IMG/VR virus record: IMGVR_UViG_3300020473_002126
Span: 1 to 60,846 of that record
DNA length: 60,846 nt
DNA from: a virus
Taxonomy: Duplodnaviria > Caudoviricetes
Direction: 5' to 3' (one strand)
A program made the position numbers and the translations under genes. Of this stretch, positions 1-58,200 are shown piece after piece (the stretch's first letter is position 1; every line of letters begins with the position of its first letter). Below the pieces are notes generated by a model that was not told where the DNA came from, ran no database searches, and saw only the letters and a program-made list of their open reading frames with translations.

Positions 1-228
1 CGGCGCGCAACAGAGAAGTGAAGTGTACAGCTCATTCAATGGCGCGCAGAATATCATAGACGACAGTAAGGCGTGCTGTTCCGTAGTCTTACGGCTAAGA
101 ACAGGGAGAAAGCTCGTGAACGGTGTTACTTACCGGTGTGCTTACATCTAACCCGAAGAGGGGACAGGCCCAAAAGGCTTGATGGTCACGAGCAAGGAAT
201 AAAGAAGTGCTAAGTATTCCACCCTTTT
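1..228 (+). ncRNA. Probable structured non-coding RNA, 3' portion, family not identified
   Basis: More GC-rich than the flanking DNA, with nested helices: CTGTT 76-80/AACAG 100-104, CCGTA 81-85/TACGG 90-94, GCTCGTGA 112-119/TCACGAGC 186-193 enclosing up to four hairpins, GGAATA 196-201/TATTCC 215-220, then CCCTTTT. Strand inferred from G-U pairs and the T run. Confidence 0.55.
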
Positions 229-242
229 AAATTTAAGAAATC

Positions 243-500
243 ATGGATGACGAAGCAGACAAACTACTATTAAAAACAGTAGGCGCTACGGTGACAAAAG
301 TAGCATTATTTATTTGTATTGCAATCGCATCAATTTCATTTTTTCATTCATGTAAACTAGACAAAGAAACAATGTCTGAGTGCAAATCTGTTTGTGGGTC
401 TTCTGGTGGTATTAAAGAAGTCACATATTCAAAATGTATTTGTAATGACTCACAGATGCAAATAAATTCATCTGATGCTTGGGTATTGCCAAGAAAATAA
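243..500 (+). CDS. Small membrane-anchored Cys-rich hypothetical protein
   Basis: N-terminal hydrophobic helix, then CxxxC and CxC motifs. Confidence 0.6.
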   Translation: MDDEADKLLLKTVGATVTKVALFICIAIASISFFHSCKLDKETMSECKSVCGSSGGIKEVTYSKCICNDSQMQINSSDAWVLPRK

Positions 501-541
501 AATAGTTTGACATAATCCCCTATTTATTTTAGGGTGTTACC

Positions 542-1069
542 TTGTTAAAGAAGATTACAAAACTATTTAAAAGAGCAAAAAACTTTATTGCTAATAAAGT
601 AGATCGGCGGATAGTAAAGTGGTATGCAGGTCTTGCTATTTGTATTTCAGGTTTAGAGATTGCGTACTTGAATGGCACTCTAAAAGAGATATATGAAAAT
701 GATCCGACAAAAATTAGCGTTGGAATTTTCTTAATTTTAATCTGGCAAACATTTAAAGCTGGATTTATTCTGTTTGAAAGAAATAGAACAGGTTTTAAGG
801 CTAATAAAGATGCGTTTAAAAAAGACATCGAGTCCGGATGGTTTTGGAGTGATTCTGTTCTATCACTTGGTATGGTGGGAACGGTGATTGGATTTATGTC
901 AATGCTAGCCGGTTTTATAACACTTGATATTGCAGATCCCGAGTCTGTTCAAGGAATAATCGCTCAACTAGGATCGGGAATGGCTACGGCATTAACAACA
1001 ACTCTAGTTGGGTTGATAGCGAGCATCTTGATAAAGGTTCAATTTTTTATGTTAGATAACATGGACTAA
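542..1069 (+). CDS. MotA/TolQ/ExbB proton channel family protein
   Basis: LSLGMVGTVIGF and GMATALTTTLVGLIASIL match the two conserved TM helices of ExbB/TolQ/MotA; TTG start uncertain. Confidence 0.85.
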   Translation: MLKKITKLFKRAKNFIANKVDRRIVKWYAGLAICISGLEIAYLNGTLKEIYENDPTKISVGIFLILIWQTFKAGFILFERNRTGFKANKDAFKKDIESGWFWSDSVLSLGMVGTVIGFMSMLAGFITLDIADPESVQGIIAQLGSGMATALTTTLVGLIASILIKVQFFMLDNMD

Positions 1070-1070
1070 A

Positions 1071-1670
1071 ATGCGTCGATCTTATCATTCAAATACAGCA
1101 TTCTTAGATTTGCTATTCAACACGCTGTTGGGTTTTGTTGCTTTTTTTGCAATAACTCTGATTCACGTAAAAAAAGATGCATCAGACAGCGCTTTAAGTG
1201 AAGTTGAACTTGATTCTCACGTTTTAATAATTGCTTCTTGGCCTGAACATCATACAGATGATATCGATATGTACGTGAAAGACCCTAAGGGTGGGATTGT
1301 TTTCTTTCGAAATAAAGACAACGATATTATGCATTTAGACAGAGATGATTTAGGGAGGGAGGGCGAGTATTACTATGGAAGCGATGAAGAAGATTACGGG
1401 ACTAATAGAGAGATGGTAACTATTAGAAAGAAGTTCCCAGGAGAGTATGTTGTCAATTTACATGCATACACGAAATCAGGTGATGATCCTGTGCCGGTAG
1501 AGGTAAAAGTATACAAAATTAAAGACGGTAGGCTTGTTCATGACGAGTTAATTTTTATAGAACATAGAGGTCAAGAAAAGACAGCTATAAGACTAGATGT
1601 CAAAGAAGACGGAAGTGTTTTGATAAAAGAGCCTCGATATCTACCTATTGCAAGAGACATCGTGAGGTAG
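1071..1670 (+). CDS. ExbD/TolR/MotB-type anchored protein with YfaP/DUF2135-like beta domain
   Basis: Single N-terminal TM with Asp (AFLDLLFNTLLGF); WxxxxxDDIDMYVKDP, LDRDDLG, NREMVTI, PGEYVVNLHAY pattern. Confidence 0.7.
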   Translation: MRRSYHSNTAFLDLLFNTLLGFVAFFAITLIHVKKDASDSALSEVELDSHVLIIASWPEHHTDDIDMYVKDPKGGIVFFRNKDNDIMHLDRDDLGREGEYYYGSDEEDYGTNREMVTIRKKFPGEYVVNLHAYTKSGDDPVPVEVKVYKIKDGRLVHDELIFIEHRGQEKTAIRLDVKEDGSVLIKEPRYLPIARDIVR

Positions 1671-1672
1671 AC

Positions 1673-2179
1673 GTGCTATTTCCAATGTATATCGCTTTAC
1701 TTTCGGCAGCTGTCATAGGCATGATTGCTATGCCTACAAAGAAACACACGTTCAAGACGTTGGTGTTGATAACTCTTTTAAGTCACGGTTACTTGACAAC
1801 TTATGCTACACTAAAAGAAATTAGCGGATATCCTACTAATGACGACCTTCCAGAAGAATTTGAGATAGTTTGGGCAAAGGTTGAAGAAAGCGGAGATGAA
1901 AAGTTTATTGAAATATGGGTTAAGTATGACACTGACTTTCATGAAAGAATTTATTCTAAGTTTTCTCTTGCGCGCTTGCCCAGTCAAGTTTCAAGAGTTC
2001 ACATACTTCCATACACAGAAGAAAACCATGAGTTTGTAGAGACTACTCAAGAAAAAATCATTGCGGGACAAAAAGTGGGCGTGATAATTGAGCCGGGTCA
2101 GGAAAATGAAGAAGTAGACTTGAGAAAATCTCAAGAACAGTATCAGATTCAGTATGAAAATAACAAGATAGCGAAATAA
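1673..2179 (+). CDS. Membrane-anchored hypothetical protein, third gene of the MotA-like cassette
   Basis: Two N-terminal hydrophobic segments and an acidic soluble domain; 2 nt after the preceding gene. Confidence 0.7.
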   Translation: MLFPMYIALLSAAVIGMIAMPTKKHTFKTLVLITLLSHGYLTTYATLKEISGYPTNDDLPEEFEIVWAKVEESGDEKFIEIWVKYDTDFHERIYSKFSLARLPSQVSRVHILPYTEENHEFVETTQEKIIAGQKVGVIIEPGQENEEVDLRKSQEQYQIQYENNKIAK

Positions 2180-5137: not shown

Positions 5138-6349
5138 ATGGCTAGTACTATAAAAAAATCAACAATGACGAAGGAGCACAAAAGATATCTTGCGGCTTCT
5201 AAAAATAGTAGTACAAAAGTTAAGACTAATCATGAAGAAGTTAAAAAACTTAACGAAGAGATTAGTTATATAGACGAAGACATTAATAATTCAGAGGAGA
5301 ATAGTATGTCACAAGATTTTGACGATTTTGATTTTGTGAGTCATTTTGATGAGAATGCCGAGGTGGGTAGCGATGAGTTACTACCAGAAAACGAAGCACC
5401 CAGTTCATTAAACTGCGCTTTTATCGGACTAGGTGGAGGAGGTGGAAAACTTGCTAAATCTTTTCTTGATCTAGGTTTTAACAAGACTATTTTAGTAAAC
5501 ACGACTGAAAAAGATCAACCTAGCGGTGTAGATCCAGATCATTTTTTGCTGATTCCAGGTGCTGACGGTGTTGGTAAAAATGTTGAATTAGGCGAAGGCG
5601 TGCTTTCTGAGAACTCTACACTTGTCGAAGATGCGCTCAGAACAAAAATAGGTAAGGTTGACTGGATTTTCGTATGCTCAGGTGGCGGAGGCGGAACAGG
5701 CAGTTCAGCAGGCGTCCTTCATGAATCTTTTGAGCGCCATTTAAAATCAGTCCAGGGTGAAGGCAGGGTTGTTTATATTATATCAACACCGACTGCTCAA
5801 GAACTTCTAAACCCTACAATCAAGCAGAATTCAAAACACCTGAGCGACGCTGTTAGTAGTCATCCACACATCGTCTTAGATAACGAGAAGCAATTAAAGT
5901 TACTAAGAGGAAAAGTAGGGATGCTCGACATGTATCCGGCTGCGAACAAAGCGTTTGCCAAGATGCTGTCCCAGGTTTTAAAGCTTTCTAGTGAGTCTTC
6001 AACTGTTCAGACTTTTGACTCAAAAGATCTTGAAGCATGTCTAAAATCACCTGGGCGAATCTTTGTAGGAACGTCTATCGTTAGAGACGCATCTCAAAGA
6101 GGGTTGGGTTCAATTATTTTTCAAAGTTGCCTAAAAGGCTCACCTTGCCAGTCCGTCAATGGAAAAGGATCTGCTGGTGCTTTGGTTTTAGTCGCACCTT
6201 CCAATATTTTAGATGACGCTGCTATTAGCAATCACCTAGAATCAGCGATCTCTTATGTGGGCGGCAGAGTAGACACACTATTTTCAGGTGTCTATGTAAA
6301 TGACAATGCGCCTGGACTAATTTCAATTATGATGGTTTGCGGTTTATAA
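5138..6349 (+). CDS. Tubulin/FtsZ family GTPase (PhuZ/TubZ-like); alternative start at 5306
   Basis: FIGLGGGGGK, VNT, GADGVGKN, SGGGGGTGS signature loop, LDNE, and T7-loop-like TFDSKD. Confidence 0.9.
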   Translation: MASTIKKSTMTKEHKRYLAASKNSSTKVKTNHEEVKKLNEEISYIDEDINNSEENSMSQDFDDFDFVSHFDENAEVGSDELLPENEAPSSLNCAFIGLGGGGGKLAKSFLDLGFNKTILVNTTEKDQPSGVDPDHFLLIPGADGVGKNVELGEGVLSENSTLVEDALRTKIGKVDWIFVCSGGGGGTGSSAGVLHESFERHLKSVQGEGRVVYIISTPTAQELLNPTIKQNSKHLSDAVSSHPHIVLDNEKQLKLLRGKVGMLDMYPAANKAFAKMLSQVLKLSSESSTVQTFDSKDLEACLKSPGRIFVGTSIVRDASQRGLGSIIFQSCLKGSPCQSVNGKGSAGALVLVAPSNILDDAAISNHLESAISYVGGRVDTLFSGVYVNDNAPGLISIMMVCGL

Positions 6350-6750: not shown

Positions 6751-8058
6751 GTGAGTAAAACACAAAAAAGAAAAACATTTATAGTTGACACTAATGTGCT
6801 GCTTTATGACAAAACCTCTATACACTCATTTCCAGGAGCAAAAGTAGTACTGCCGCTGACAGTATTAGATGAACTAGATAGGTTTAAAGATAAACCCGGC
6901 CTATTGGGTGAATCAGCCAGATATGTCAATAGGTTCTTAGATGAAGTTCGAAAAAGCGGTTCACTAACCGAGGGTGTCTTTATTGAAGATATCGATCAGA
7001 TAATAAAGGTGGAATTCAATAATGTAGAATTACTACCTGCTGATTTAAATCATACTACAGGTGACAACAAGATACTGGGTGTAGCATTACAACTAGCTAG
7101 AAATGAAGATATCACGGTAATCACAAAAGATATTAACTTTAGAGTAAAGTGCGATGTTCTAAAAATACCGTCAGAAGATTATTACAAAGATCATATCAGT
7201 AATCTAGACAATATGGATGACCTCTACTCTGGTCAAGACGAAGTATCAGTTGGAAAAGATCAGATTGATGATTTCTTTGCAGATGAAAAAATTCCTGCAC
7301 CTGAAATAGAAGGGAGTGAGTATCATGAAAATCAATTTTTCGTTCTAAAATCAAATTCGTGCAAAGCATCCGCTCTAGCAAAATATCAAAAAGGAGATTT
7401 GGTAGCTGTAAAACCCACTATAAATGATATGGTTAAAGTGAAACCTAGAAATAAGGAGCAAAAATTTGCTTTAGAGTTGCTTACTAATGATAAAATACAG
7501 TTAGTAACTATTACAGGTATTGCCGGGTCTGGCAAGACATTCTTAACTCTCATGAGTGCTCTTTCTGGGATCTATAGCGAAAGATACAATAGAATTGTCA
7601 TAACAAGATCTATGCAGCCTGTAGGTAAAGAAATAGGCTTCTTGCCCGGGACACTTGATGAAAAAATGTCCCCGTGGATGTCTCCCATTGTTGATAATTT
7701 TAGATGCAACTTCAAAGATATCACATATTTTGAAATGATGTGCCAAAAAAGACAAATTGAGGTTGCTCCTTTGACTTATATGAGAGGTAGAACTTTTAAT
7801 GATGCTTTTATTATTGTTGATGAAGCACAAAATGCTACAATTCATGAATTGAAAACTATTATTACTAGAGTAGGGGACAATTCTAAGGTTGTCCTCTTAG
7901 GTGATGTAGAGCAGATTGATACCCCCTATATTGATAAGCTGTCAAATGGTCTTTCTATTGTGACTGAAAAGTTCAAAGAATCCGAAATAACCGGCCACAT
8001 ACGGCTAGAAAAGGGTGAGCGATCACCATTAGCTACATTAGCATCAAAAGTTCTCTGA
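6751..8058 (+). CDS. phoH: PhoH-family ATPase with N-terminal PIN domain (PhoH2/YlaK type)
   Basis: VDTNVLL, ELD, DNKIL and TKDINFRVK PIN motifs; GIAGSGKT, IGFLPG, YMRGRTF, DEAQN, GDVEQID. Confidence 0.95.
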   Translation: MSKTQKRKTFIVDTNVLLYDKTSIHSFPGAKVVLPLTVLDELDRFKDKPGLLGESARYVNRFLDEVRKSGSLTEGVFIEDIDQIIKVEFNNVELLPADLNHTTGDNKILGVALQLARNEDITVITKDINFRVKCDVLKIPSEDYYKDHISNLDNMDDLYSGQDEVSVGKDQIDDFFADEKIPAPEIEGSEYHENQFFVLKSNSCKASALAKYQKGDLVAVKPTINDMVKVKPRNKEQKFALELLTNDKIQLVTITGIAGSGKTFLTLMSALSGIYSERYNRIVITRSMQPVGKEIGFLPGTLDEKMSPWMSPIVDNFRCNFKDITYFEMMCQKRQIEVAPLTYMRGRTFNDAFIIVDEAQNATIHELKTIITRVGDNSKVVLLGDVEQIDTPYIDKLSNGLSIVTEKFKESEITGHIRLEKGERSPLATLASKVL

Positions 8059-46616: not shown

Positions 46617-48134
46617 GTGTATAGAATTCTTAAAGCATTGAAAGACACGTACATTACTAATAGGATTGTTTCTAATAATTTTAGAGCAAAAGATGCAAAT
46701 GTAGGCCAGGCAGGAACGCTGGATCTTTTTAAACTGCACGATGAAAATACGCTGACGGGAACTGCAGCCCCACAAGAACTCTCTAGAATTCTAGTAAAGT
46801 TTGACTTAAGTAATTTGCAGTCATTGACAGGTTCAACATTGGACATTAATCATTCGTCATTCAAGTGTACTTTAAAACTGTATGACGTTTACGGTGGGCA
46901 ACCTACACCTGAAAACTTCAAAATAATAGTTCATCCCCTCTCTAAGTCATTTGATGAGGGGACAGGCATGGACATAAGAAATTACAGTCATTTGGGTAGC
47001 TGTAACTTTATAACTGCATCTGCAACTAGTGGAAATCCTGTCGTCTGGAACAGTCAAGGAGCCAATGCATCAGGTATTTTAGGACAGAGTAATATTGACA
47101 TAATATCAAGTGGTAACCTCAAAGATGGCGATGGTGTTGCAAATTTATTTAAAACCCAATCATTCGCTACGGGTTTAGAAGATATCTCTATTGATATAAC
47201 AACATTGGTTTCTGCCACAATCGCCGGCTTATTACCAGACCATGGTTTGAGAATAGCATTCTCAGGAACACAGGAAACAGATACAAAGACTCGATTTGTC
47301 AAAAGATTCGCATCAAGACATTCGTCAAATGATAGAAAAACGCCCAGAATTTGCGTTCAATATGATGATAGTGTTCACGATGATCATGAAAACATGTTTT
47401 TTGATTTGACAGGATCTTTGTTTTTAAGAAACTATCACAGAGGTCAGCTAGCAAACCTAAGGTCAGGATCTAGCTTAACTGAGATTACAGGTGACAATTC
47501 TATTCGGCTGAAGATAAAGTCAGGTTCTTGGTATAAATTATTGACAGGATCACAACACAAAATAGGGTCTGCTGCTGTTTCTGGAACATACTCAGCTTCA
47601 TTTGCTATTTCATCGCTGACTACCGAGCTGACAGGAGAAATAAATGCAGCAGGATCTGGAACTTTTAATCTGTATTGGATTTCATCAGACCAGACAGTTG
47701 CTTATCACACTGGTTCTTTAGTTATCAATTCAATTACAAGAAACTCTTTCTCTAGTAATCCTAGAAAGTTAAATTTCACAATTATGAATCAAAAGCCTTC
47801 TTATTTAAGCACTGAAAAGGTTAGATTTAGAGTTCATGTAGAAGATATATCTCCGGTTGTAAAAAGAGCTAGAAAAGTCCCGATAGAAAATAAAACAATA
47901 CTGTTTAGAAATATGCATTATCGAGTTGTCGATGCACAGACAAACGATGTAATAATTCCGTTTGATGAGTCAAAAAATTCGACAAGACTATCTTCGGATG
48001 GAAATGGGATGTTTTTTGATATGTATATGGATTCGCTGACCAAGGGTAGAAACTATATGATACATTTTAAAGTGTCAGATATGGGAACTACGATCATTGA
48101 TCGCGATGCAGGAATTAAATTTCGGGTAGATTAA
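46617..48134 (+). CDS. Probable baseplate/tail structural protein
   Basis: KDTYIT, SRILVKFDL, PRICVQYDDS beta-sandwich pattern; follows gp6; rich in TGS/SGS. Confidence 0.7.
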   Translation: MYRILKALKDTYITNRIVSNNFRAKDANVGQAGTLDLFKLHDENTLTGTAAPQELSRILVKFDLSNLQSLTGSTLDINHSSFKCTLKLYDVYGGQPTPENFKIIVHPLSKSFDEGTGMDIRNYSHLGSCNFITASATSGNPVVWNSQGANASGILGQSNIDIISSGNLKDGDGVANLFKTQSFATGLEDISIDITTLVSATIAGLLPDHGLRIAFSGTQETDTKTRFVKRFASRHSSNDRKTPRICVQYDDSVHDDHENMFFDLTGSLFLRNYHRGQLANLRSGSSLTEITGDNSIRLKIKSGSWYKLLTGSQHKIGSAAVSGTYSASFAISSLTTELTGEINAAGSGTFNLYWISSDQTVAYHTGSLVINSITRNSFSSNPRKLNFTIMNQKPSYLSTEKVRFRVHVEDISPVVKRARKVPIENKTILFRNMHYRVVDAQTNDVIIPFDESKNSTRLSSDGNGMFFDMYMDSLTKGRNYMIHFKVSDMGTTIIDRDAGIKFRVD

Positions 48135-51100
48135 TGGGAAAAAAGACTTTAGATTTAGGGCGCCCAAGGCTTTTCACATCTAGCAATATTAGAAAAATAA
48201 TGACTGATTCTGATATGCGAGAGCGAAAACCGATAGACGTCGAAGCAGGCACCACATCATCCTATAGATACGATCCATTGGGTACGGGTCTAAAGTCAAC
48301 ACAGCAGTCAAATATTGATTTTTCTAAGTTTGAGAATCATACGTTTTTTAATTCGGCCATTGTCAATACAAACATTGCTTTTGATAAAATAATAAACTTC
48401 TATCCCTTCGATGGGACAAAAAAAGAAAAAGAATCATTTGAAGACAGGCTTACTGGTTTTGAAAAGCACATTTTAGACACCTGGCCAAAATCTAAGGGGT
48501 ACTTGAGTTTCGGACCACCTGCCAGCGGAAGTTACATATCTGTGGAAGACATGAAAGGAATAACTAACCCGTCTCTTTCTAGAGAAGACACAGCTCAGGC
48601 AGCTCTAGACCCAGGTCAAAAATCAGTATCTATAGAATTTCATATATTGCTTCCTGACAATAGTCAAAAAATAAATAATCAAATAATCTGCCAGAAAATA
48701 GATTCAACAAAGAAATTTGGGTATTCCGTCGCAACACATGAGGCCGCTTCATCACAGTCTTCTTCAGTCATCTTTTCAGTCTGTTCAGGTAGTTCAACTA
48801 TTACTCAAAAGATGCCGATCTCTAGAGGAAGATTTCATCATGTTGCGTTAGTTTTTAATCGAGATAAAAGCTTAGATAGATTATTGCTCTATAGGAATAC
48901 AAAACTAATTGTAACTTCCACAACAAGGTCTGATATAGGGAGTTTTGGTGCGGGCTTTAAGGCTGCCAATCTTTTAATAGGGTCGGGATCATCATTTACG
49001 ACTTCTAGCTATGGATCAGCTGAAAGATTTGTTCCCGGGACAACTTTCACTGGATCACTTGATGAATTTAGAATACATCATAAATCGTTAACTCTTGCTG
49101 ACATAAAAGAAAATTATGTGAGAGATATCGAACAAAATGAAGACTTGGCCGTGTACTTTAAGTTTAATGAACCGACCGGTACACTGGGCAGTTCAACCAG
49201 TACAGTTTTAGATTATTCAGGAAATTCCCTCCACGCTTCAGTGTCTAATTTTCATCACGATATGCGAAGCACCGGATCAGTTGACAATCCGATGGTGGGC
49301 GAAGACAAGCACAACTGCCCTGTTCTTTTCCCCGGGTATTCAGATGTCATCACTAAAAATAAACAACTTCTTGTTACAGCTAGTGCATATGATAACATAA
49401 ATCCAAACTTAATTACACGGCTAGTTCCACCACATTATTTTGACGAAGGAATGATATATCAAGGCTTGGCAAATGTTGATGGTTCGATAACATCTTCTTA
49501 CGGAGGCTCAGGCAGACCCGGCTCCGGTGACTTGGGAACTTATCAAATCCTTTCTGCATTTCTATATACATGGGCAAAACATTTTGATGAGCTGAAAATA
49601 CAAATAGATGCATTTGCCAATATTTTGACAGCAGATTATCGCGATCCAGATACTGTACCAGATCAATTTCTTCCATTTTTAATGAAATATTACGGTTTTG
49701 ATGTGCCCAATATGTTTCAAAAGAGTTCAACATCACAATATGTCGAAGGAAGAGATCTTAAAACTTTTGCAGGTTTAAGCTCAGAGTCTCTAGCAAAAGT
49801 TCAGTCGAAAATATGGCGACAAGTTTTGTCAAATCTTTCAGAAATAATGAAATCCAAGGGGACTTTAAACAGTGTGAAATCAATTCTTCGCTCTGTGGGA
49901 ATTGACCCTGATTCTTCTTTGAGGATAAGAGAATTCGGAGGACCCACAAGGCGATCATTGAGCGGATCCAGAGCGACTAGAAAAGCTATAAAGGGAATGA
50001 TAAACTTTTCAGGTTCTTTGAAAACAGCACCCGGAACATTGACAACTCAGGGCGTCTCTTTGAACAAGCCGTTTCTAATTTCACCATTCTTATCTGGGTC
50101 TAGAGTTGAACCAGGAATTCCTAATGTTAAGGGTACTTTTGGAAAGAAAAACAAAATAGTAACCGGTACAAATGTGCCAGCTGACGGGTTTTACACGTCT
50201 GGATCATGGACTTATGAGGCAATGTACAGGTTCCCGCAGAGGTTGACTGGATCGATGATTCTAACCCAGAGTTTAGTTAGACTGGGTGTAACGGGAACAT
50301 CAGCTCCATCAAACAAAAACGGTATCGTTTTAAATCTAGTACTAGTATCAGGATCAGAAGTAACTGGATCGAGACTGACACTTCATGCAAGACCAGGCCG
50401 AGATGTAAGTACATCAGCTTCTAAGTTTTTTGAACTCACTCTAACTGGAACCGAGATGATGAACGGAGATTTATGGTGGGTTTCTTTTGGTAGAACTAGA
50501 AACGATCTTATTTCAACCCCAAATTCATCTTCTTATTTTCTGAGAGCTGCATGTCCAAACTTAGGTGAAATAAATACAAACAAACTGTATATGACTTCGT
50601 CTTTCTTCCAAGAATCAACGAATAAAAACAACATAGTCTTTTCTAATAAATCAGTGCATAACCTATCAGGTGCCTTCATATTGATAGGATCGCAGAGCCT
50701 TGATTTGACTTCTAACTATTTCTTGCACAGAGACGTTACAGGTGACACAAGAAAATCTAATGAAATACATGCAACTGATTTCATGGGTCAAGTTTCAAAT
50801 GTTCGATTTTGGTCTAAAGCGTTGGCTGAAGATGAATGGCAAGAGCACGTCAGAAATTACAAATCTTTAGGCGTAAGAAACCCAGCAGTCAACTTTAACT
50901 TTACCACTAAGATATCCGGGTCTTTTGAAAAGCTTCGAATGGATGTTTCCGCCGATCAGACTATTACCGGATCAAACGCTTCAAGGCAAATAACTTTTAC
51001 CGACTATAGTCAGAATTACAATCATCTCACAGGGACGGGTTTTGAGGTAAGTGCTTCAATTATAAAACCCGTGGATCTTTACTATACACATCTAACGACA

Positions 51101-51655
51101 AAGATTGATGAGTTAGTTGCAAGTAACAAGATACGAGTTCGAGGTTTTTCTAATTTTAGCAAAGCTAAAAATGCTGATGTTGAAGTGGCACCTGTCTATG
51201 CCTTAAATAAATCAGAAGAACCACTTGATGACCCGAGATTTAGTGTTGATTTCTCTGTTGTTGACGCTCTTGATGAAGACATTGTTTCCATATTTGGAAC
51301 TCTAGAATTCTTAGACAATGCTATCGGAGATCCTGAGTTAATATTTTCAAATGACTACCCCAAACTTGATCATTTGAGGTACGTATATTTTGATAAATTG
51401 ACAGGCGTGATCAATCATCAACGGTTTTTTGAGTTCTTTAAGTGGTTTGATACTACAATAGGTTCTTTTATAGAAAATGTACTACCTAGAAAAACTAGTT
51501 TCCTTGGGACAAATTTTGTGATAGAATCACATATGCTTGAGCGCCCAAAGATGGAATACTTCTTTAATAAGCAGTATTTGAACGAATCTGATAGGCGGGG
51601 ACTCAAGGGGACAATAACTTTAACACAATATACTGGCGATGTTAAGAAGTTTTAG
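48134..51655 (+). CDS. Large baseplate protein with LamG/ConA domains and a tail protein I/gp7-like segment
   Basis: FHHVALVF, FTGSLDEFRI, YFKFNE, DYSGN; PDQFLPFLMKYYGF...KSKGT...LRSVG; VIESHMLERPK. Confidence 0.8.
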   Translation: MGKKTLDLGRPRLFTSSNIRKIMTDSDMRERKPIDVEAGTTSSYRYDPLGTGLKSTQQSNIDFSKFENHTFFNSAIVNTNIAFDKIINFYPFDGTKKEKESFEDRLTGFEKHILDTWPKSKGYLSFGPPASGSYISVEDMKGITNPSLSREDTAQAALDPGQKSVSIEFHILLPDNSQKINNQIICQKIDSTKKFGYSVATHEAASSQSSSVIFSVCSGSSTITQKMPISRGRFHHVALVFNRDKSLDRLLLYRNTKLIVTSTTRSDIGSFGAGFKAANLLIGSGSSFTTSSYGSAERFVPGTTFTGSLDEFRIHHKSLTLADIKENYVRDIEQNEDLAVYFKFNEPTGTLGSSTSTVLDYSGNSLHASVSNFHHDMRSTGSVDNPMVGEDKHNCPVLFPGYSDVITKNKQLLVTASAYDNINPNLITRLVPPHYFDEGMIYQGLANVDGSITSSYGGSGRPGSGDLGTYQILSAFLYTWAKHFDELKIQIDAFANILTADYRDPDTVPDQFLPFLMKYYGFDVPNMFQKSSTSQYVEGRDLKTFAGLSSESLAKVQSKIWRQVLSNLSEIMKSKGTLNSVKSILRSVGIDPDSSLRIREFGGPTRRSLSGSRATRKAIKGMINFSGSLKTAPGTLTTQGVSLNKPFLISPFLSGSRVEPGIPNVKGTFGKKNKIVTGTNVPADGFYTSGSWTYEAMYRFPQRLTGSMILTQSLVRLGVTGTSAPSNKNGIVLNLVLVSGSEVTGSRLTLHARPGRDVSTSASKFFELTLTGTEMMNGDLWWVSFGRTRNDLISTPNSSSYFLRAACPNLGEINTNKLYMTSSFFQESTNKNNIVFSNKSVHNLSGAFILIGSQSLDLTSNYFLHRDVTGDTRKSNEIHATDFMGQVSNVRFWSKALAEDEWQEHVRNYKSLGVRNPAVNFNFTTKISGSFEKLRMDVSADQTITGSNASRQITFTDYSQNYNHLTGTGFEVSASIIKPVDLYYTHLTTKIDELVASNKIRVRGFSNFSKAKNADVEVAPVYALNKSEEPLDDPRFSVDFSVVDALDEDIVSIFGTLEFLDNAIGDPELIFSNDYPKLDHLRYVYFDKLTGVINHQRFFEFFKWFDTTIGSFIENVLPRKTSFLGTNFVIESHMLERPKMEYFFNKQYLNESDRRGLKGTITLTQYTGDVKKF

Positions 51656-51663
51656 ATAATTAA
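51656..51663 (+). promoter_or_regulatory. Candidate phage late promoter ATAATTAA
   Basis: Starts the 16 nt gap before ATG 51672; no Shine-Dalgarno. Confidence 0.3.
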
Positions 51664-51671
51664 TCACTGTT

Positions 51672-54600
51672 ATGGCAAAGAAACCTTCATGGAAATCTAG
51701 AGAAGTAGTCGAACCCTACGTTGAAAAACAAGGGACAAACCGAAAACTTCATACTATACGAAAACTGGGCCCTGCTAGAGAAGCGCCCGATCTAAAGCTG
51801 GGTTTCAAGACTAAAAACGGTTTCGAGTACGGTCAAACAGCAAATCTCGTAATGTGGATGCGGGCCCAAAAATCAGGTGTGCCAACTGATGGTACTGGTA
51901 ATCACACAATACAACACACAACGGGCTCAGCTGATCATAACGGGATCCAAGGCGCCGATGGAAGCCTCCTGACAACAAAAGATGATACGCCCTTTGTAAG
52001 GTTTACACCAAAACCTTATCGATCTCTAACAAGAGCAATAGTTTTCAATTCAGGTTCAGGCGACCGACACTTTTTACACGTAACATCATCACAGTACACA
52101 ACACTAGCTAGCGGAACAGCTGGAACAAAAAACAAGTCGATGACTTGGAACGTGTGGGTCAAGCCACGATTGACGGGTACTCATGCAGGAAACACAAGAA
52201 GATATATCTTTAGAAAACAGTCAGGTTCAGCAGCTGCGACTAATAGAGAATATTCTCTTTCTATAGACCCAGATGCAAAGCTCGTATTTCAACTTTGGGA
52301 TGAGTCTACAAGTAAACATGTCTTAAAAACAACAGATCTTCGCATATCAGGTTCAGGAATACAAACAGGGGTTTGGCAGAACATCTGTGTGACATACTCG
52401 GGTAAAACTGGATCGTACACCCATCAAGGCATCAAGATGTACAGGAACGGTAACCTGGTGTCTTCTGGGAACGCTGGTACAACACAGTCAGGTTATGTAG
52501 CTACAGAAAATGCAGGCGGCGACTTAGTTATTGGAACTGCATTTACTGGCTCCACGACAGCAAATAATTTCTTTGCTGGAAAAATGGCAGAGTTCAGTAT
52601 GTGGCACACAGCGCTGACAGAGAAAGAAGTAAAAGCTCTATATGATGCTAGAAAATTCTTTGGAAGAATGGATACGACTGCTATCGATCATCTTCGCCAA
52701 GGTGTGAGCATTTTAAGTAGTAAGCAGCGATGGCGTTCTTCCAATGCACCAAAAATTAGCGGCATATCAAGATTAAGCACAGATGATGTAATATCACACG
52801 AACAAGATAAAAATATATACGGAGATGCAAAGCTATTCAGAGACGATACTCCTTTTGAAGAGTTAGCTGATGCCGAGAGGCTCAGAAAGGATATATCTCG
52901 TACTGTGGTAGGATCCAAAGCTTCCGCCTCGCTAGAGTTTAGGGGATATCAGCCGATCAAGAGCGGGTCTTCCATGGCAAATGGTTTAATTTTAACAGGG
53001 GCAAATGGAACAAAATCTGTTTTCTACTTTGAAAGAAAGGGCCAGCTTTCCTCTGCAAACACCACAGCGTTCAAGGCCAGTGGATTCCACGCCGTCACCG
53101 TCACCGCAGCCTCACTGACTTTGGCAACAGGCAACCTCGGCCGAGGCGAGTTATGGGCAGCCGCATTCACATCTGCAGTAAACGGTCAAACAAATTCCAA
53201 TCAAATTGTTGCAAGAAGAGTGGGAAATGTTGTAAAGTTAACTAGTACTGTAACGGGAACTGCCGGCAACACGTATATCTCCCCGCGCATACTTAGAGCC
53301 GCCACTACATCTGTAACAGGGGTCGCAACATTATTTGAAAATAGAAAAAACGATGCCTCTATTTACCCGTCTGCTTTTAGCTTTATAACAGGTACGTTTA
53401 ATACGGCCAGTGTTGGTGCAACTCCAGGTCGGGATGGTGTTCTAACATTTAGGGGCGGCAATTCGACAATGAAGCATGTTGTGACCCGCGCTCTTGGTGG
53501 TGCTATCGATTACATGCAAGACAATGGCCACCAACAGTATCCTGTGATCATAACAAATGTTTCAATGAGAGACCCAGCTCAGTTTGATGGAAACATCGAA
53601 CCCCTTCCAATCAGAACTAAAGTTTCTTGGGCTTCACCTGAAGCTCCTTTTCTTGCTAGAGACGTTCGAGCATCATTCATGGGAGGCGAAGGAAGCGTGC
53701 TCTTTGGATCGACAATTATTGAGCAGAAATATGACAATAAAAACCCAGCAAAACAAGTGTCAACGCCATTGTCTGCTCCTCACGGGGCCAGAAGAGATGA
53801 TAAAGTAACAGATCCATTTATTGATGCGCAAGAAAATATCTTTGGCCTTGGTGCTAAGCCGGCGTATGCTTACCTTAGATTTAATAAAGTCCCCCACAAT
53901 AGAGACAAGATTATATTGACAGACACAAAAGGGAAGGCTGTGTGTTTTGAATTTGTCAACAGCACGTCTAGGTCAACAGGTACTTTTGGAAAGTTAAGAA
54001 ATAGACCTTCTTCGAGCGGAACAGGAAGGGGGACATGGCGTGTTCTCTTAACATCATCAGCCGGTACTGGCTTAACAACGGGTTCCCAAACAAAGTCTCA
54101 AGTTACTAGAGCGATGCACCTCTTTAGGATGGAATTGCATCACGCATATAATTTAGGTAGACTGGCAATATCAGGATCTGATAGAGCCTACAAAGAGACA
54201 GCATTCGATGCAGACGGGAAACCAATTAATGATCCGAGTACAAATCGCCCTAGAGTTGTAACGTATCCCAATTCTGGCTCAAATCGGTCGAACACATACG
54301 TACGCCTAGACCAAAAAGCATCAGGTTCAGACGGAAATAGGCGAATAGACTTTCGGGCGAGAGGTTTTAGTTCAGGGACTTATATTGTCAATAACGTGAC
54401 AGCATCAGAAGCATATAGATCAATTGTATCACAATTTTCCGGAGCAACAACGTACAGAAACTTTAGAACAAGAATAAAGTTTGTCAGACAAAAAGCCAAA
54501 AAGATGGGGATTGCATTTGTAAGTGGATCGGATGCATTTAACCTTCCAGTAGACGGATATATTTCAGATATCGAAAGAAAAGCGGAACCATTCAAAGACA

Positions 54601-55259
54601 CACTTTCGCAATTTACAAAATATGTAATGAGTTCAAAAGCAGCAAGTGTGAGAATTCGTGTGCACAGTCGAGCTGGCTTTGATGCCCGACATGGTCTAAA
54701 GTTCGCAGATGCAGATGGCAATATTTTTTCTGCTTCCATTGATAGTTCGAAGACTATTGAGCAGTCTACTTCAACAAAAATAGGCTACTCAAATGCTAGT
54801 ACAACTGCAAAACTAGCTAGAGCAATTTACGGATCATTGCATCATGCTATGACATACGGTGTAACTGCAGCATCTACAGGATCAGCCTCAAGCGGCGGAA
54901 ATAAGTTAAAAATCCAATTGGGCTACACTCATGGAACCTCAGGAATATCTAGACACCTATTTTTGTCTCAATCAACACCAGGGCCTGCCGGCAACAACAC
55001 AATTACCCTTAGTCTGCCTGATGTATCATATATTCGAGCATATGCAGGTGACACAGATGTTCCTTCAAACCGCACAACTGGATTTACTGAAGGAGCCGCC
55101 GAAATCGGTGGCCCCCACGCAATACTGACGTCGACTATGAGAGGGACTAGAGAGTGGACTGATTTAAGCCATGGTTACAAATCATCCGGTGCAGGGTTTA
55201 CTTATGATAACGACGTTTTCGGAACAGATTCAATAGCATTCGGTGGAAAAAAGAGATGA
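51672..55259 (+). CDS. Large LamG-domain virion protein
   Basis: MTWNVWVKP, WQNICVTY, KMYRNG, FAGKMAEFSMWHTALT; Ser/Thr/Gly rich; C-terminal GFTYDN...GTDSIAFGG. Confidence 0.8.
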   Translation: MAKKPSWKSREVVEPYVEKQGTNRKLHTIRKLGPAREAPDLKLGFKTKNGFEYGQTANLVMWMRAQKSGVPTDGTGNHTIQHTTGSADHNGIQGADGSLLTTKDDTPFVRFTPKPYRSLTRAIVFNSGSGDRHFLHVTSSQYTTLASGTAGTKNKSMTWNVWVKPRLTGTHAGNTRRYIFRKQSGSAAATNREYSLSIDPDAKLVFQLWDESTSKHVLKTTDLRISGSGIQTGVWQNICVTYSGKTGSYTHQGIKMYRNGNLVSSGNAGTTQSGYVATENAGGDLVIGTAFTGSTTANNFFAGKMAEFSMWHTALTEKEVKALYDARKFFGRMDTTAIDHLRQGVSILSSKQRWRSSNAPKISGISRLSTDDVISHEQDKNIYGDAKLFRDDTPFEELADAERLRKDISRTVVGSKASASLEFRGYQPIKSGSSMANGLILTGANGTKSVFYFERKGQLSSANTTAFKASGFHAVTVTAASLTLATGNLGRGELWAAAFTSAVNGQTNSNQIVARRVGNVVKLTSTVTGTAGNTYISPRILRAATTSVTGVATLFENRKNDASIYPSAFSFITGTFNTASVGATPGRDGVLTFRGGNSTMKHVVTRALGGAIDYMQDNGHQQYPVIITNVSMRDPAQFDGNIEPLPIRTKVSWASPEAPFLARDVRASFMGGEGSVLFGSTIIEQKYDNKNPAKQVSTPLSAPHGARRDDKVTDPFIDAQENIFGLGAKPAYAYLRFNKVPHNRDKIILTDTKGKAVCFEFVNSTSRSTGTFGKLRNRPSSSGTGRGTWRVLLTSSAGTGLTTGSQTKSQVTRAMHLFRMELHHAYNLGRLAISGSDRAYKETAFDADGKPINDPSTNRPRVVTYPNSGSNRSNTYVRLDQKASGSDGNRRIDFRARGFSSGTYIVNNVTASEAYRSIVSQFSGATTYRNFRTRIKFVRQKAKKMGIAFVSGSDAFNLPVDGYISDIERKAEPFKDTLSQFTKYVMSSKAASVRIRVHSRAGFDARHGLKFADADGNIFSASIDSSKTIEQSTSTKIGYSNASTTAKLARAIYGSLHHAMTYGVTAASTGSASSGGNKLKIQLGYTHGTSGISRHLFLSQSTPGPAGNNTITLSLPDVSYIRAYAGDTDVPSNRTTGFTEGAAEIGGPHAILTSTMRGTREWTDLSHGYKSSGAGFTYDNDVFGTDSIAFGGKKR

Positions 55260-58200
55260 GCGACACAAGACTTAATAGACAAAAGTTAGTAAATTTTCAC
55301 CCAACTGGGTCCAACATAGTCAGCGCCCTTAACGGTAGTCACTGGGACGGATCGACTACAAAACGTCCTCTGATGTATCTGTCTATGAATGATGTATCTG
55401 GTACTGACATAGGCGCATCCGGAGGCTATTTACATGACCGCTCCGGACAGGCTAATCACGCTGAAATTTATCACGCTACAGGGACTAATGCTACTGGAAA
55501 ACCATCAACATGGCATCATGAAGATGTACCATGGGGACCTTCTCTAAGGAGGGGAATACACAAGTATTCGATTCAGATCAATGAAATGACTGGGTCAAAA
55601 ACTGCTGCAAACTGGAATCTCCATTGGGCTGCAGCAACTAATCAGACAACCGCTAGAATTTATCACCCAGTTTCTATCAACCTTACAAAGTCTGACGGCA
55701 CAGTAGCTACAGGCCAGTCTGAAGATATTGTATTTGAAAATGAATATACTTCAATGGTTTGGATAAAGCCTTCTAGATCAATATTCACAACTGTTGACGG
55801 TGACAAAGTCGGAATGGCTCTCTTTAATTTCACAAATCAAGAAATGCTATGGTACCGTCTCGAGGACGGCGCTTTAGCATGGGAAGTAGATGACCCCGCG
55901 TCGGGCAGAGATGACGAATACAACTACCAGCTAAGGACAAAGAAAAAGAGTCTTTTAAAACCTGACAAGTGGTATCATTTAGCAATTTCAAGGGATGTAA
56001 AGGGAGGCAAGCCACCTAGAATATACTTGAACGGAAAGCGTCTAACACTTGATTTTAATGTTAGCTGGGGAGGCTCCTCAAACACAGACGGTCTTCCTGG
56101 TAGTTCAACAAACTACATATCTCATATTTTTGGTGCCTGGACGGAAAATAGATGGGATGTAAACCCAGATGACAGCGACGGTTATGTTAACAAAAGACAC
56201 TTTATTGGAAGGATAGCGCAGTGGATCACTTGGCCCATTCAACTGTCCGATCGAGATATCTACACGATCTACGGAGCGTGTCTAGGTGCCTATGAAAGAA
56301 AGTCAGGCGTGTTAGACGTAATTCCCCAGAGAGAACGTCTTTACATTCAGGATAATAAGACAGGATCCTACCCGACAATTCAGCGATCAGGAATTGACAA
56401 TCGCCATGGAAGTTACAACGTTTCTTACGATGACACTAATACAATTATCTTCAAGAAGCATGCAGATATCTTTCCTGGAGAATTAGACAAAGTCAACAAG
56501 GGCGCTGTGAGAAAAGAAAGGCTCATGGCATGGTGGCGATTACAGAACCTTGCTGCTTCATCAAGTCACACCTCGTGGAAGGGTAGAATCAAGATAGGGA
56601 CTACACTTTATAACGACGTCGCAACGTCGATGGTGGGCAATGGCTCGATGGTTAACATCACTGGTTCAAAAGGACACCCTGGCGCTGGAGACCAGAGACT
56701 TTTAGATTCAGGACAGTGGGGCCTTACAGGGACGCTGTTTGGTAACGCTACATTTACAACTGATCAAAGATTTGCCAAGTCATTTACAACAAGCTCTAAG
56801 GGTCCGTTCACAAAACCTCGTGAAGAAGACTTGAAACTTATGAGCCCCGATCAACTATCCCGATGGGGAGGCCAAAGAGCTCTTTTCCTACCCCAGACTG
56901 GAACCATGGCATCGTATGTTTCATTTACTGATAATGTCGTTCCAAAGATGCGTCTTGTTAGAGACTTTAAAAATGGTCGCAGAAGAGATAAGCCCTGGAC
57001 AATGTCGATGTGGTTTAAAGTTCAAGATAAGGGGAATCATCATGATGATGCCATAAGCAACGACTACCACGGCTTCTTTACTATCGAGAATGACACGTCT
57101 GGAACTCTATCTCGTGCCAGAATTAAAAGAGATCTAGACACAGGTAGGTGGTCCATTAAGTGGTGGGTGTACGGTATTGACGACGAGACTGCTGACTTAT
57201 CCACTGTCTCTGTAGAAACGAACAATCTTTACGCAAACGGTCAATATTTTAAGACTGTCCCTACTGGCTCACTACCCAACAGGGGCCTACCAGAAGGTTG
57301 GCATCATATAGCCTTTGTCTACAGAGGTGGTAAAGTCAGAAGATCTAATGCACACTGGCGCGGCAAAATAAAATCTTTGTTTAAGCTTGTAGGTTTTCTG
57401 CCAATTGTTAATCCTAAAGTCCGCGGCGGCCGAATGCAAATTTGGCTAAACGGAAAGCAGCTTGTCACATCTGCAACTTTAGGCAATGTGAATAGCTTCA
57501 AAAGAATTAAAGAACCTCACCCGACTATTTCTGATGGAAAAAATGTCGTCCTCGGCCACTACTCTGTAAAAGCAGCAAGGACTGCAGCTAACACAGGAAT
57601 GACAGGCTCATTTTCTGGATCCCTCGCTGAGGTTGCTTTCTTTGATCGGGCCTTAAAGAAGCCAGGGATCAACAGGATTGTTAATAACGGCAAGTTCACG
57701 CCAGAAATTAACGTGACTGACTTCCCAATGATGCTTGATAGAGATCATCCTCAAATGGACAGAATGCCTGTAACAGACCTAAAGACATTCGGGTCAACCC
57801 GCCCAGGAATATCAGACACAAGGGTGACTTTCACAAAGGGCGACGACCTAGTACCCTTCGATGATCGAAAGACCCTCATCGCGACAGGATCAAATCTTAT
57901 TGGGACTCCTTCGCACATTTATCCGGATCTCGAAGCACCTCTGGCGTCAAAAGCTTCATTCACAGTCAATATAACCCCAAAACACGACATGGTTCTGACA
58001 AAGTGGATGCACACAGGACCGGCATACGGTACTGCGGTTGGGTCTTGGGACGACGAAACAGCTAAACACTGGAATGTTGGAAGAAGCACACTCCGTGCTA
58101 TGGCGAGAGAATACGAAGGTTCCGACGCGATATCAGCAAATGAGAATGATGGTCATAACGGTTCGGGTGGTGGTTCCGCTGGAACACACTGGTTAGATTC

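What the first reader, a model, noticed from the sequence alone, without database searches (positions are those of the whole stretch)
1..228. Tail end of an unidentified, highly structured RNA
This GC-richer segment folds by eye into a multiway junction. A perfect 8-bp helix (112-119/186-193) closes up to four hairpins (121-135, 135-148, 152-162, 166-180; the first two share G135) and is flanked by further stems (76-104, 196-220) and a T run. Several pairs are G-U, which favours RNA on the + strand. I see no tRNA, tmRNA or RNase P terminal motif. Large phages are known to carry big structured RNAs such as GOLLD and ROOL, so this is either a distant member or a new class (inference).
Basis: partly seen in the sequence, partly recalled or inferred. 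Interest (0 to 1): 0.7.

Follow-up and report, generated by a model that had tools for sequence, protein, structure and literature searches.

The report
New large folded phage RNA
The first 228 bases of this marine giant-phage fragment are the tail third of a roughly 650-base, intricately folded non-coding RNA that belongs to a widespread, uncatalogued family and probably pairs with copies of itself.

Summary
Window 1-228 is the 3' third of a real RNA gene on the + strand. A profile built from 16 homologues without the window matches window 2-229 to profile positions 430-658 of 658 (E 3.8e-61). The contig simply starts inside the gene.

The family is large and marine. It gave 169 profile hits in fetched viral, metagenome and MAG contigs, including 107 full-length copies, 73 of them unique. 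It matches no Rfam 15 family and no record among 50,697 deposited phage genomes.

Covariation is overwhelming. Over the whole RNA, 117 of 144 pairs show compensatory changes, and 34 of 52 do in the window's part.

The 135-148 hairpin does not. Instead 145-148 pairs with 181-184, and 138-143 forms a pseudoknot with the loop of the last hairpin (205-210).

Two further features emerged:
- An apical loop at 24-29 stays palindromic through at least five different sequences, which suggests self-pairing between RNA copies.
- Homologues carry a boxA-like leader, as rRNA operons do.

Function is unknown. ROOL and GOLLD are the closest analogues but not relatives.

The parts
1..228 (+). 3' third (profile positions 430-658 of 658) of a ~650-nt structured non-coding RNA. 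The 5' two thirds lie beyond the contig start.
   Evidence: nhmmer E 3.8e-61, 200 bits. Covariation. RNA-library and DNA contigs run on upstream of position 1.
5..47 (+). Domain closed by helix 5-7/45-47, with inner pairs 8/42 and 16-17/35-36.
   Evidence: Pair 6/46: CG 34, UA 18, GU 5, UG 5, GC 2. Pair 16/36: 22 rows changed on both sides. Pair 17/35: 17 rows.
22..32 (+). Hairpin 22-24/30-32 whose apical loop carries the palindrome at 24-29.
   Evidence: 62 of 64 rows hold a palindrome of 4 nt or more here. 99 of 129 unique sequences hold one of 6 nt or more. In the 63 full-length representatives, 56 rows have a 6-nt palindrome in this loop, against 0-6 rows in each of the 13 other apical loops.
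76..104 (+). Hairpin with an invariant outer stem 76-81/99-104 and a covarying inner stem 84-88/93-97.
   Evidence: The outer 6 pairs are identical in 64 of 64 rows. The inner pairs change on both sides in 3, 19, 24, 7 and 30 rows.
105..111 (+). Near-invariant purine-rich single strand between the hairpin and the closing helix.
   Evidence: G104-G108, A110 and A111 are invariant in 64 rows.
112..193 (+). Domain closed by the 8-bp helix 112-119/186-193.
   Evidence: Both-sided changes in 20, 19, 16, 14 and 4 rows at the five outer pairs. G-C becomes G-U in 19 rows at 116/189.
121..135 (+). Hairpin 121-124/132-135.
   Evidence: Both-sided changes in 8, 11, 2 and 10 rows.
138..143 (+). 5' strand of the pseudoknot or kissing helix. 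It lies in the junction between hairpin 121-135 and helix 145-148/181-184.
   Evidence: Pairs with 205-210. 141-143 covary in 26, 31 and 25 rows, 98-100% canonical.
145..184 (+). Helix 145-148/181-184 enclosing two variable hairpins, 152-154/160-162 and 166-170/176-180.
   Evidence: Both-sided changes in 1, 33, 16 and 3 rows. The two inner hairpins are missing (gap or N) in 12-15 of the 64 rows, by pair.
196..220 (+). Terminal hairpin 196-201/215-220. Its loop (205-210) is the 3' strand of the pseudoknot.
   Evidence: A hairpin of 4 bp or more forms in the tail of 64 of 64 rows. 55 of 64 hold a 6-nt complement of their own junction 6-mer inside it. With shuffled partners the mean is 20.5 and the maximum 31 in 200 shuffles.
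225..228 (+). Short T run after the terminal hairpin, a possible weak terminator tail.
   Evidence: Read directly from the sequence. Not called by the terminator scan. Across the family, 34 of 64 rows have 5 or more U in 8 nt after the stem.

Best explanation
WHAT IT IS
Window 1-228 is the 3' third of a stand-alone gene for a ~650-nt, heavily pseudoknotted non-coding RNA. The gene is carried by uncultured marine jumbo phages, and the family is not catalogued.

SHOWN
- It is a + strand RNA with about 31 helices and 4 pseudoknots, supported by compensatory changes.
- It is not coding.
- It has no fixed neighbouring gene.
- In homologues it is preceded by a boxA-like leader and often by a sigma-70-like promoter or by tRNA genes.
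- It ends in a hairpin whose loop is tied back into the fold.

INFERRED
- The host NusB/S10 antitermination machinery carries RNA polymerase through this long untranslated transcript, as in rRNA operons.
- The product is a stable, abundant RNA.
- Copies associate with each other through the palindromic apical loop (window 24-29). The result would be a symmetric dimer or larger RNA-only assembly, as shown for OLE, ROOL and GOLLD.
- The 138-143/205-210 pairing could be within one molecule or between molecules.

ROUGH ODDS
- Real structured ncRNA of a new family: 0.95.
- Self-association through the palindromic loop: 0.45.

The cellular target is unknown. A role in the phage's tRNA or translation takeover is a guess from its position.
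For: FAMILY
- 169 nhmmer hits at E<=1e-5 in the fetched loci. 107 are full length, 73 unique, and 63 representatives are below 92% identity, with median pairwise identity 64%.

STRUCTURE
- Whole RNA: 144 pairs, 97.2% of cells paired against 79.6% shuffled and 40-44% slid. 117 pairs have both-sided changes, and 0 of 500 shuffles reach any measure.
- Window part: 52 pairs, 97.0% against 82.9%, 34 pairs with both-sided changes, 0 of 500.

STRAND AND CODING
- Strand: 421 G-U against 28 A-C cells.
- Not coding.

CONTEXT
- No conserved protein neighbour. The best cluster appears in 10 of 63 loci and on either side of the RNA. tRNA genes lie within the fetched flanks in 23 of 63 loci.

LEADER (in homologues, outside the window)
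- Leader positions 3, 4, 6, 7, 9 and 11 are invariant and positions 1 and 5 are 90% or more conserved in 63 sequences. They match the rrn boxA plus spacer quoted in PMC2724277 (passages read).
- A promoter-like motif lies within 70 nt upstream in 29 of 61 loci, against 51 of 1260 control windows.

PALINDROMIC LOOP
- At least five different palindromes occupy one loop. The property is specific to that loop.

EXPRESSION HINT
- In three metatranscriptome runs from three studies, contigs cover only window 1-194, 1-182 and 1-154. A DNA run covers 1-1500.

PRECEDENT
- In ROOL and GOLLD, kissing loops first seen by covariation proved to be bridges between molecules (PMC12286853, passages read).
Against: - No experiment exists, and no cultured phage carries the RNA.
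- The 5' two thirds, the boxA leader and the promoter are not in the window. They are inferred from homologues.
- In the commonest form the palindromic loop is only 5 nt once 24/30 pair, which is tight for a 4-6 bp kissing complex.
- A palindrome could also be a site for a dimeric protein.
- RNA-library contigs cannot prove transcription, and DNA carry-over is possible (one search says so).
- The shuffle control ignores phylogeny, and the nested structure came from RNAalifold on the same alignment. 'Percent paired' is therefore partly circular. R-scape was not available.
- The window's terminal hairpin is not a consensus terminator.
- 0 of 4 jumbo-phage records that share the window's ExbB gene cluster hold the family's exact pattern. 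The RNA is therefore not universal in this phage group, or it diverges beyond an exact pattern.
Confidence: 0.5

Rival explanations
1. Same new RNA family, but it works as a monomeric ribozyme or as the RNA core of a ribonucleoprotein, for example acting on phage tRNAs or on the ribosome. The palindromic loop would be a protein site or a crystal-like contact of no biological role.
For: - Many invariant unpaired nucleotides: 42 invariant columns in the 3' part alone.
- Four pseudoknots.
- Frequent position in tRNA arrays, 23 of 63 loci.
Against: - No conserved protein gene beside it.
- No likeness to RNase P, tmRNA, introns or any Rfam ribozyme.
- The palindrome is kept through at least five sequence changes and is unique to that loop. 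That is hard to explain without symmetric pairing or a symmetric binder.
Confidence: 0.3
2. A very divergent member of GOLLD or ROOL that the Rfam models cannot reach.
For: Same size class, phage origin, tRNA neighbourhood, pseudoknots and kissing loops (PMC12286853).
Against: No GOLLD or ROOL match at E<=1 on a full-length copy, or at E<=5 on ten diverse copies. No shared motif was seen. Fold-level comparison was not possible with these tools.
Confidence: 0.05
3. A cis-acting element: either a 5' leader or riboswitch of the downstream gene (243-500), or the 3' end of an upstream protein gene read in frame 2.
For: - Frame 2 is open from the contig edge to position 151.
- Only 4 T follow the last hairpin, and the next ORF starts 15 nt later.
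Against: - Flanking genes differ between loci.
- 34 of 64 copies end in a hairpin followed by 5 or more U.
- The frame is not conserved.
- The 49-aa peptide has no Pfam or NCBIfam match at E<=10, and only E>=1 tblastn matches in phages.
Confidence: 0.02
4. A chance fold of GC-richer DNA with no function.
For: The single-sequence z-score is only -1.67.
Against: 169 homologous copies with compensatory changes.
Confidence: 0.01

Closest known systems
ROOL RNA (Rfam family; large ornate RNA of phages and prophages)
   Same: - About 600 nt and non-coding.
- Encoded by phages, often near tRNA islands.
- Multiple pseudoknots and no known protein partner.
- Covarying kissing loops, which in ROOL bridge molecules of an RNA-only cage (PMC12286853, passages).
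   Different: - No covariance-model match.
- Found here only in uncultured marine jumbo-phage contigs, not in prophages. Only 3 of the 8 matches to the exact pattern, which was scanned over the genome-contig collection (one genome for each of 185,579 species), are true copies, all on MAG contigs.
- It has a boxA-like leader.
- Multimerisation is untested.
GOLLD RNA (Rfam family)
   Same: - A large phage RNA near tRNAs, with marine examples.
- A better conserved 3' region.
- Self-interacting (palindromic) kissing loops join the cage halves (PMC12286853).
   Different: - About 650 nt rather than about 800.
- No model match.
- Different helices and motifs.
OLE RNA
   Same: About 600 nt, ornate, and forms a symmetric homodimer (PMC12286853 abstract).
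   Different: OLE is a chromosomal RNA of Gram-positive extremophiles or anaerobes with known protein partners (PMC9723947 abstract, listing). There is no sequence or model match here.
rRNA operon leader (boxA antitermination site bound by NusB/NusE)
   Same: In homologues, a leader that matches the rrn boxA plus spacer precedes a long untranslated structured transcript (PMC2724277).
   Different: The product is not rRNA. The leader lies outside the window. Binding of Nus factors is untested. Position 2 of the leader varies (U, A or C).
Phage T4 stable RNAs species 1 and 2 in the tRNA cluster (recalled, and named in earlier scan notes)
   Same: Stable non-tRNA RNAs of unknown function encoded within a phage tRNA region.
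   Different: These are only about 120-140 nt, with no likeness tested or seen.

Membership tests
New ~650-nt marine jumbo-phage RNA family (this report) | Significant match to a sequence profile built from other members | tested here: met
   Window 2-229 matches profile positions 430-658 of 658, E 3.8e-61.
New ~650-nt marine jumbo-phage RNA family (this report) | The family helices of the 3' domain can form in the window copy | tested here: met
   The window is row 1 of A3. All 52 pairs were written from window positions that pair. The MFE fold agrees for 5 of the helices.
New ~650-nt marine jumbo-phage RNA family (this report) | Pseudoknot between the junction 6-mer and the terminal hairpin loop | tested here: met
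   Window 138-143 is complementary to 205-210. 55 of 64 rows hold such a complement.
New ~650-nt marine jumbo-phage RNA family (this report) | Palindromic apical loop | tested here: met
   Window 24-29 is a 6-nt palindrome.
New ~650-nt marine jumbo-phage RNA family (this report) | 5' two thirds with a boxA-like leader | not testable with these tools
   The contig begins inside the gene.
GOLLD / ROOL (Rfam) | Reaches the family's covariance-model gathering score | tested here: not met
   No match at gathering score in the window. None at E<=10 in 1-600, at E<=1 in a full-length homologue, or at E<=5 in ten members.
GOLLD / ROOL (Rfam) | Lies beside phage tRNA genes | tested here: inconclusive
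   No tRNA in the 60.8-kb window, and the upstream side is missing. tRNAs lie within the flanks in 23 of 63 homologous loci.
GOLLD / ROOL (Rfam) | Forms RNA-only multimers | not testable with these tools
   Only an indirect hint, the conserved palindromic loop.
tRNA / tmRNA / RNase P RNA | Detected by ARAGORN or by the Rfam models | tested here: not met
Intrinsic (Rho-independent) terminator | G+C-rich stem with a 3-8 nt loop, followed by 5 or more T in 8 | tested here: not met
   No site called in window 1-700. The window hairpin has a 13-nt loop and 4 T. 34 of 64 family members do have 5 or more U.
Protein-coding gene tail (frame 2) | Frame kept open, with third-position variation in homologues | tested here: not met
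   Open in 4 of 64 rows. Variability by codon position is 0.203/0.202/0.238.

The most novel reading that the evidence does not exclude
This is a third or fourth natural class of large phage RNA that builds symmetric RNA-only assemblies. The palindromic loop (24-29) would join two copies. The covarying 138-143/205-210 'kissing' pair would be a bridge between molecules, giving a closed multimer made under rRNA-style (boxA) antitermination during infection by marine jumbo phages.
Probability: 0.3. Interest if true: 0.9.

Novelty: new variant of a known kind. Interest (0 to 1): 0.78.

Why it matters
Large, ornate bacterial and phage RNAs of unknown function are few: OLE, GOLLD, ROOL, raiA and HEARO. 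Three of them were recently shown to self-assemble into RNA-only dimers or cages (PMC12286853).

A further family would widen that set. It is abundant in ocean viromes and seen in metatranscriptome assemblies. It has about 650 nt, four pseudoknots, an rRNA-like antitermination leader and a loop that stays palindromic through evolution. The alignment offers 63 diverse sequences, ready for cryo-EM and for a covariance model.

The family also shows that jumbo phages borrow the host's boxA system for a non-ribosomal RNA. Finally, it gives a clean marker for annotating a gene-free, GC-rich gap in such genomes.

Tried and rejected
SEARCHES THAT FOUND NOTHING
- Single-protein searches for relatives of the two downstream genes in IMG/VR.
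- blastn and nhmmer of window 1-240 against the 80 ExbB-neighbour loci.
- blastn 'distant' of window 1-240 and of a full-length homologue against 50,697 phage records.
- Earlier notes of this scan searched by place and by sequence.
- Four literature searches listed no paper on such an RNA. Only the listings and two papers' passages were read.

IDEAS CONSIDERED AND DROPPED
- A TnpB or IscB gene tail with its guide RNA. The frame-2 peptide has a vague likeness to a RuvC-III motif, recalled from memory. It was dropped because there is no Pfam or NCBIfam match at E<=10, only E>=1 tblastn matches, and the frame is not conserved.
- The 3' end of a tmRNA. The idea came from a tmRNA near an ExbB homologue in another phage. 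There is no ARAGORN or Rfam support.
- RNase P-like or group II intron-like motifs. These were judged by eye only, with no model support.
- Pairing of the 5' leader with 104-108, as RNAalifold drew it. The pairs never covary and leader position 2 varies without compensation, so it was dropped in favour of boxA.
- Helix 71-78/134-141. It is all but invariant and conflicts with covarying helices.

LIMITS OF THE READ LAYING
- The RNA-library contigs stop at 154-194, and nothing covers 200-1500 in those runs. Contigs cannot place an RNA end, so this is no more than a weak hint.
- 0 of 4 ExbB-sharing jumbo-phage records hold the exact family pattern. An exact pattern cannot show absence.

Full report
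WHAT THE RECORD IS

The window is a whole IMG/VR virus record of 60,846 bases with no end repeats. CheckV estimates it as 17% complete, so it is a fragment of a phage of roughly 350 kb. Genes are dense and almost all lie on the + strand. Pfam finds the following:
- a MotA/ExbB-like channel
- UvdE
- a PIN-PhoH fusion
- a radical SAM/SPASM enzyme
- glycosyltransferases
- three proteins of more than 1100 residues with Laminin_G_3 domains

The finding sits at the very start of the record, so anything upstream is simply missing.

CHECKING THE OBSERVATION

GC content is 0.515 in 1-200. It is 0.335 in 201-400, 0.31 in 301-500 and 0.28 in 401-600.

Its z-score is only -1.67, and 13 of 200 shuffles fold as well. 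The reverse strand gives z -0.83. One sequence alone therefore proves little.

ARAGORN finds no tRNA or tmRNA in the window. Rfam 15 gives no match at gathering score in the whole window. Within 1-228 at E<=10 there is only a 13.5-bit chance match.

FINDING RELATIVES

Several routes failed first:
- Single-protein searches with the two downstream genes found nothing in IMG/VR.
- A protein search showed that the ExbB-like gene has relatives at 46-66% identity. An alignment of these fetched 80 viral loci, but none held DNA like window 1-240.

Exact short stretches of the RNA worked:
- One 19-mer hit a second viral contig. There the homologous stretch ends a 745-base gene-free region.
- A 17-mer gave 8 loci, of which 7 were true and 1 was a coding chance hit.
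- Two degenerate patterns from invariant stretches gave 16 and 27 viral loci.
- One of those patterns also gave 8 loci in the species-representative genomes. Three of these are true copies, all on MAG contigs, and one is the same 101,404-base contig as an IMG/VR record.
DNA was fetched for 80 of them.

A profile of 16 copies then scored 169 hits at E<=1e-5 in the fetched loci, none of them in the 80 ExbB loci. Of these, 107 are full length, 73 are unique, and 63 representatives are below 92% identity. Median pairwise identity is 64% and the minimum is 44%.

Host contigs reach 552,571 bases. Run labels and record names are marine. No record among 50,697 deposited phage genomes matches.

IS THE WINDOW A MEMBER, AND WHICH PART?

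The profile was built without the window. It matches window 2-229 to profile positions 430-658 of 658, with E 3.8e-61. The window therefore holds the last third of the gene.

Contigs from a DNA run and from RNA libraries extend 17-81 bases beyond position 1. One loose end from a relative reads like the family consensus upstream. The gene evidently continues in the real genome.

STRUCTURE

RNAalifold on the 63 full-length representatives gives 133 pairs, of which 104 have compensatory changes. An all-against-all column scan added four pseudoknots.

With these included, the whole RNA has 144 pairs in 31 helices:
- 97.2% of 9044 cells are standard pairs, against 79.6% after shuffling partners and 40-44% when partners are slid by 1-3 columns.
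- 117 pairs have changes on both sides.
- No shuffle out of 500 reaches any of the five measures.

For the window's part, aligned as the window plus 63 sequences, the figures are as follows:
- 52 pairs in 12 helices
- 97.0% paired, against 82.9% shuffled and 35-48% slid
- 34 pairs with both-sided changes, covering 454 cells
- 0 of 500 shuffles reaching the observed values

Two caveats apply. The shuffles ignore relatedness, and the nested pairs were predicted on the same alignment. The compensatory counts and the slid controls are therefore the more telling numbers. R-scape was not available.

WHAT THE WINDOW'S PART LOOKS LIKE

All coordinates are window coordinates.
- Helix 5-7/45-47 closes a small domain. 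Inside it are pairs 16-17/35-36 and a hairpin 22-24/30-32.
- The hairpin at 76-104 has an invariant outer stem and a covarying inner stem.
- A near-invariant purine-rich strand (104-111) follows.
- The 8-bp helix 112-119/186-193 closes a three-way junction made of hairpin 121-135 and helix 145-148/181-184.
- That second helix closes another junction holding the hairpins 152-162 and 166-180. These two hairpins are missing (gap or N) in 12-15 of the 64 rows, by pair.
Its 3' half pairs with 181-184, with both-sided changes in up to 33 rows.
- Its 5' half (138-143) pairs with 205-210 in the loop of the terminal hairpin 196-220. Three of these six pairs are nearly fixed. The other three change on both sides in 26, 31 and 25 of 64 rows and are 98-100% canonical.
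- Every one of the 64 tails folds into a terminal hairpin. 55 of them contain a 6-nt complement of their own junction 6-mer. With shuffled partners the mean is 20.5 and the maximum 31.
- G-U and U-G make up 421 of 3212 paired cells, against 28 A-C or C-A, which fixes the + strand.

NOT CODING, NOT CIS-REGULATORY
- The phase of frame 2 is open in 4 of 64 aligned sequences.
- Aligned segment lengths fall 26/23/15 over the residues mod 3.
- Variability is flat over codon positions.
- The 49-residue peptide has no family match.
- Flanking genes differ from locus to locus. The commonest neighbour, an FKBP-like protein, is in 10 of 63 loci and on either side.
- 34 of 64 copies end with 5 or more U in 8 nt after the last stem. 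In the window there are only four T, and the consensus scan calls no terminator. Read-through into the next gene at 243 cannot be excluded here.

FEATURES OUTSIDE THE WINDOW THAT BEAR ON HOW IT WORKS
- All 63 full-length copies begin with a leader that is invariant at six positions and 90% or more conserved at two further positions.
- The leader reads like the E. coli rrn boxA and its spacer, as quoted in PMC2724277. That paper describes boxA as the NusB/NusE site that makes RNA polymerase resistant to Rho-dependent termination on the long untranslated pre-rRNA (passages read).
- A TTGnnn-N16-18-TAnnnT motif lies within 70 nt upstream in 29 of 61 loci, against 51 of 1260 control windows.
- Other copies follow tRNA genes directly. 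tRNA genes lie within the fetched flanks of 23 of 63 loci, nearly all on the same strand.

A LOOP THAT STAYS PALINDROMIC

The apical loop at window 24-29 is a 6-nt palindrome.
- Across the family the same loop carries at least five different palindromes, with four different central 4-mers. One variant differs from the commonest form by a symmetric double change.
- 62 of 64 rows have a palindrome of 4 nt or more there.
- 99 of 129 unique sequences have one of 6 nt or more, and 123 have one of 4 nt or more.
- Among 14 apical loops of the consensus, this one has a 6-nt palindrome in 56 of 63 sequences. The other loops have one in 0-6 sequences.

A palindrome in a hairpin loop cannot pair within the loop. 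It can pair with the same loop of a second molecule. That is how two of the GOLLD cage contacts work. In ROOL and GOLLD, kissing loops first found by covariation turned out to be contacts between molecules (PMC12286853, passages read).

I therefore read this loop as a likely self-association site, and I leave open whether 138-143/205-210 lies within one molecule or between molecules. There are counter-points. With pair 24/30 formed the loop is only 5 nt. A dimeric protein could also explain a palindrome.

EXPRESSION

Six metatranscriptome runs hold 16-24% of the sampled words of window 1-600. Three were laid, from three studies. Their contigs cover 1-194, 1-182 and 1-154 and nothing in 200-1500. 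A DNA run covers 1-1500 on a 3208-base contig.

As the tool states, contigs cannot show transcription, ends or level, and DNA can be present in RNA libraries. This is a weak hint that the RNA is far more abundant than the neighbouring messages.

COMPARISON WITH WHAT IS KNOWN

The closest kinds are ROOL and GOLLD: phage RNAs of 600-800 nt near tRNA islands, rich in pseudoknots, without known partners, that form RNA-only cages. OLE, a ~600-nt RNA that forms a dimer, is also close.

This RNA is not a member of those families by the only membership test available, their covariance models.

Four literature searches listed no description of it. Only the listings were seen, apart from the two papers cited. 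Supplements were not consulted, and subscription journals are not covered.

Earlier notes of this scan mention other uncatalogued large RNAs with boxA in marine phages, including a ~610-nt one beside a tRNA island. Sequence look-ups found no overlap with this family, so identity with any of them is untested.

VERDICT

The interpretation ('tail of a big structured RNA, probably a new class') is supported. What it does is unknown. The best-supported working model is a stable, antitermination-dependent phage RNA that self-associates through a palindromic loop.

Noticed in passing
window 542-2179: A three-gene block: a MotA/ExbB-like channel (Pfam E 2.2e-07), a 199-aa protein and a 168-aa protein. 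The block is syntenic in a 254,743-base jumbo-phage contig (L003 5983-7609). The 199-aa protein has 26-34% identical relatives in 29 Rhizobium/Sinorhizobium phage records.
   Followed up: partly
L058 8889-9403: Another jumbo-phage contig with an ExbB homologue encodes a tmRNA. It matches Rfam beta_tmRNA at 99.6 bits and the permuted tmRNA model at 119.7 bits, about 2.4 kb downstream of that gene.
   Followed up: no
window 6751-8058: A PIN domain fused to a PhoH-like ATPase (Pfam E 7.8e-25 and 9.7e-56). A similar PIN-containing ORF lies downstream of the RNA in 7 of 63 homologous loci.
   Followed up: no
window 5138-6349: A 403-aa protein with a weak Tubulin/FtsZ GTPase match below Pfam's cut-off (E 6.1e-04, 20.5 bits against a cut-off of 33). 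It has no tblastn match in 50,697 phage records. It could be a divergent phage tubulin.
   Followed up: no
window 48134-60844: Three consecutive giant ORFs (1173 aa, 1195 aa, and more than 1863 aa running off the contig), each with an N-terminal Laminin_G_3 domain. They are likely fibre or adhesin proteins.
   Followed up: no
A2 columns 14-66 (e.g. L102, L091, L095, L149, L113, L218, L219): In a subgroup of the family, including the copy on the 552-kb contig, an extra GC-rich stretch of about 40-55 nt sits between the boxA-like leader and the first hairpin. It looks like an added stem-loop.
   Followed up: no
window 71-84: Pairs 72/83 and 73/82 also covary (G-C 57 rows, U-A 7 rows). Yet they enclose the 5' strand of helix 76-81/99-104. 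This is either a small extra pseudoknot or an alternative fold.
   Followed up: partly
window 243-500: The first ORF after the RNA encodes an 85-aa protein with one hydrophobic segment and seven cysteines. It has no Pfam match and differs from the genes that follow the RNA in other phages.
   Followed up: no
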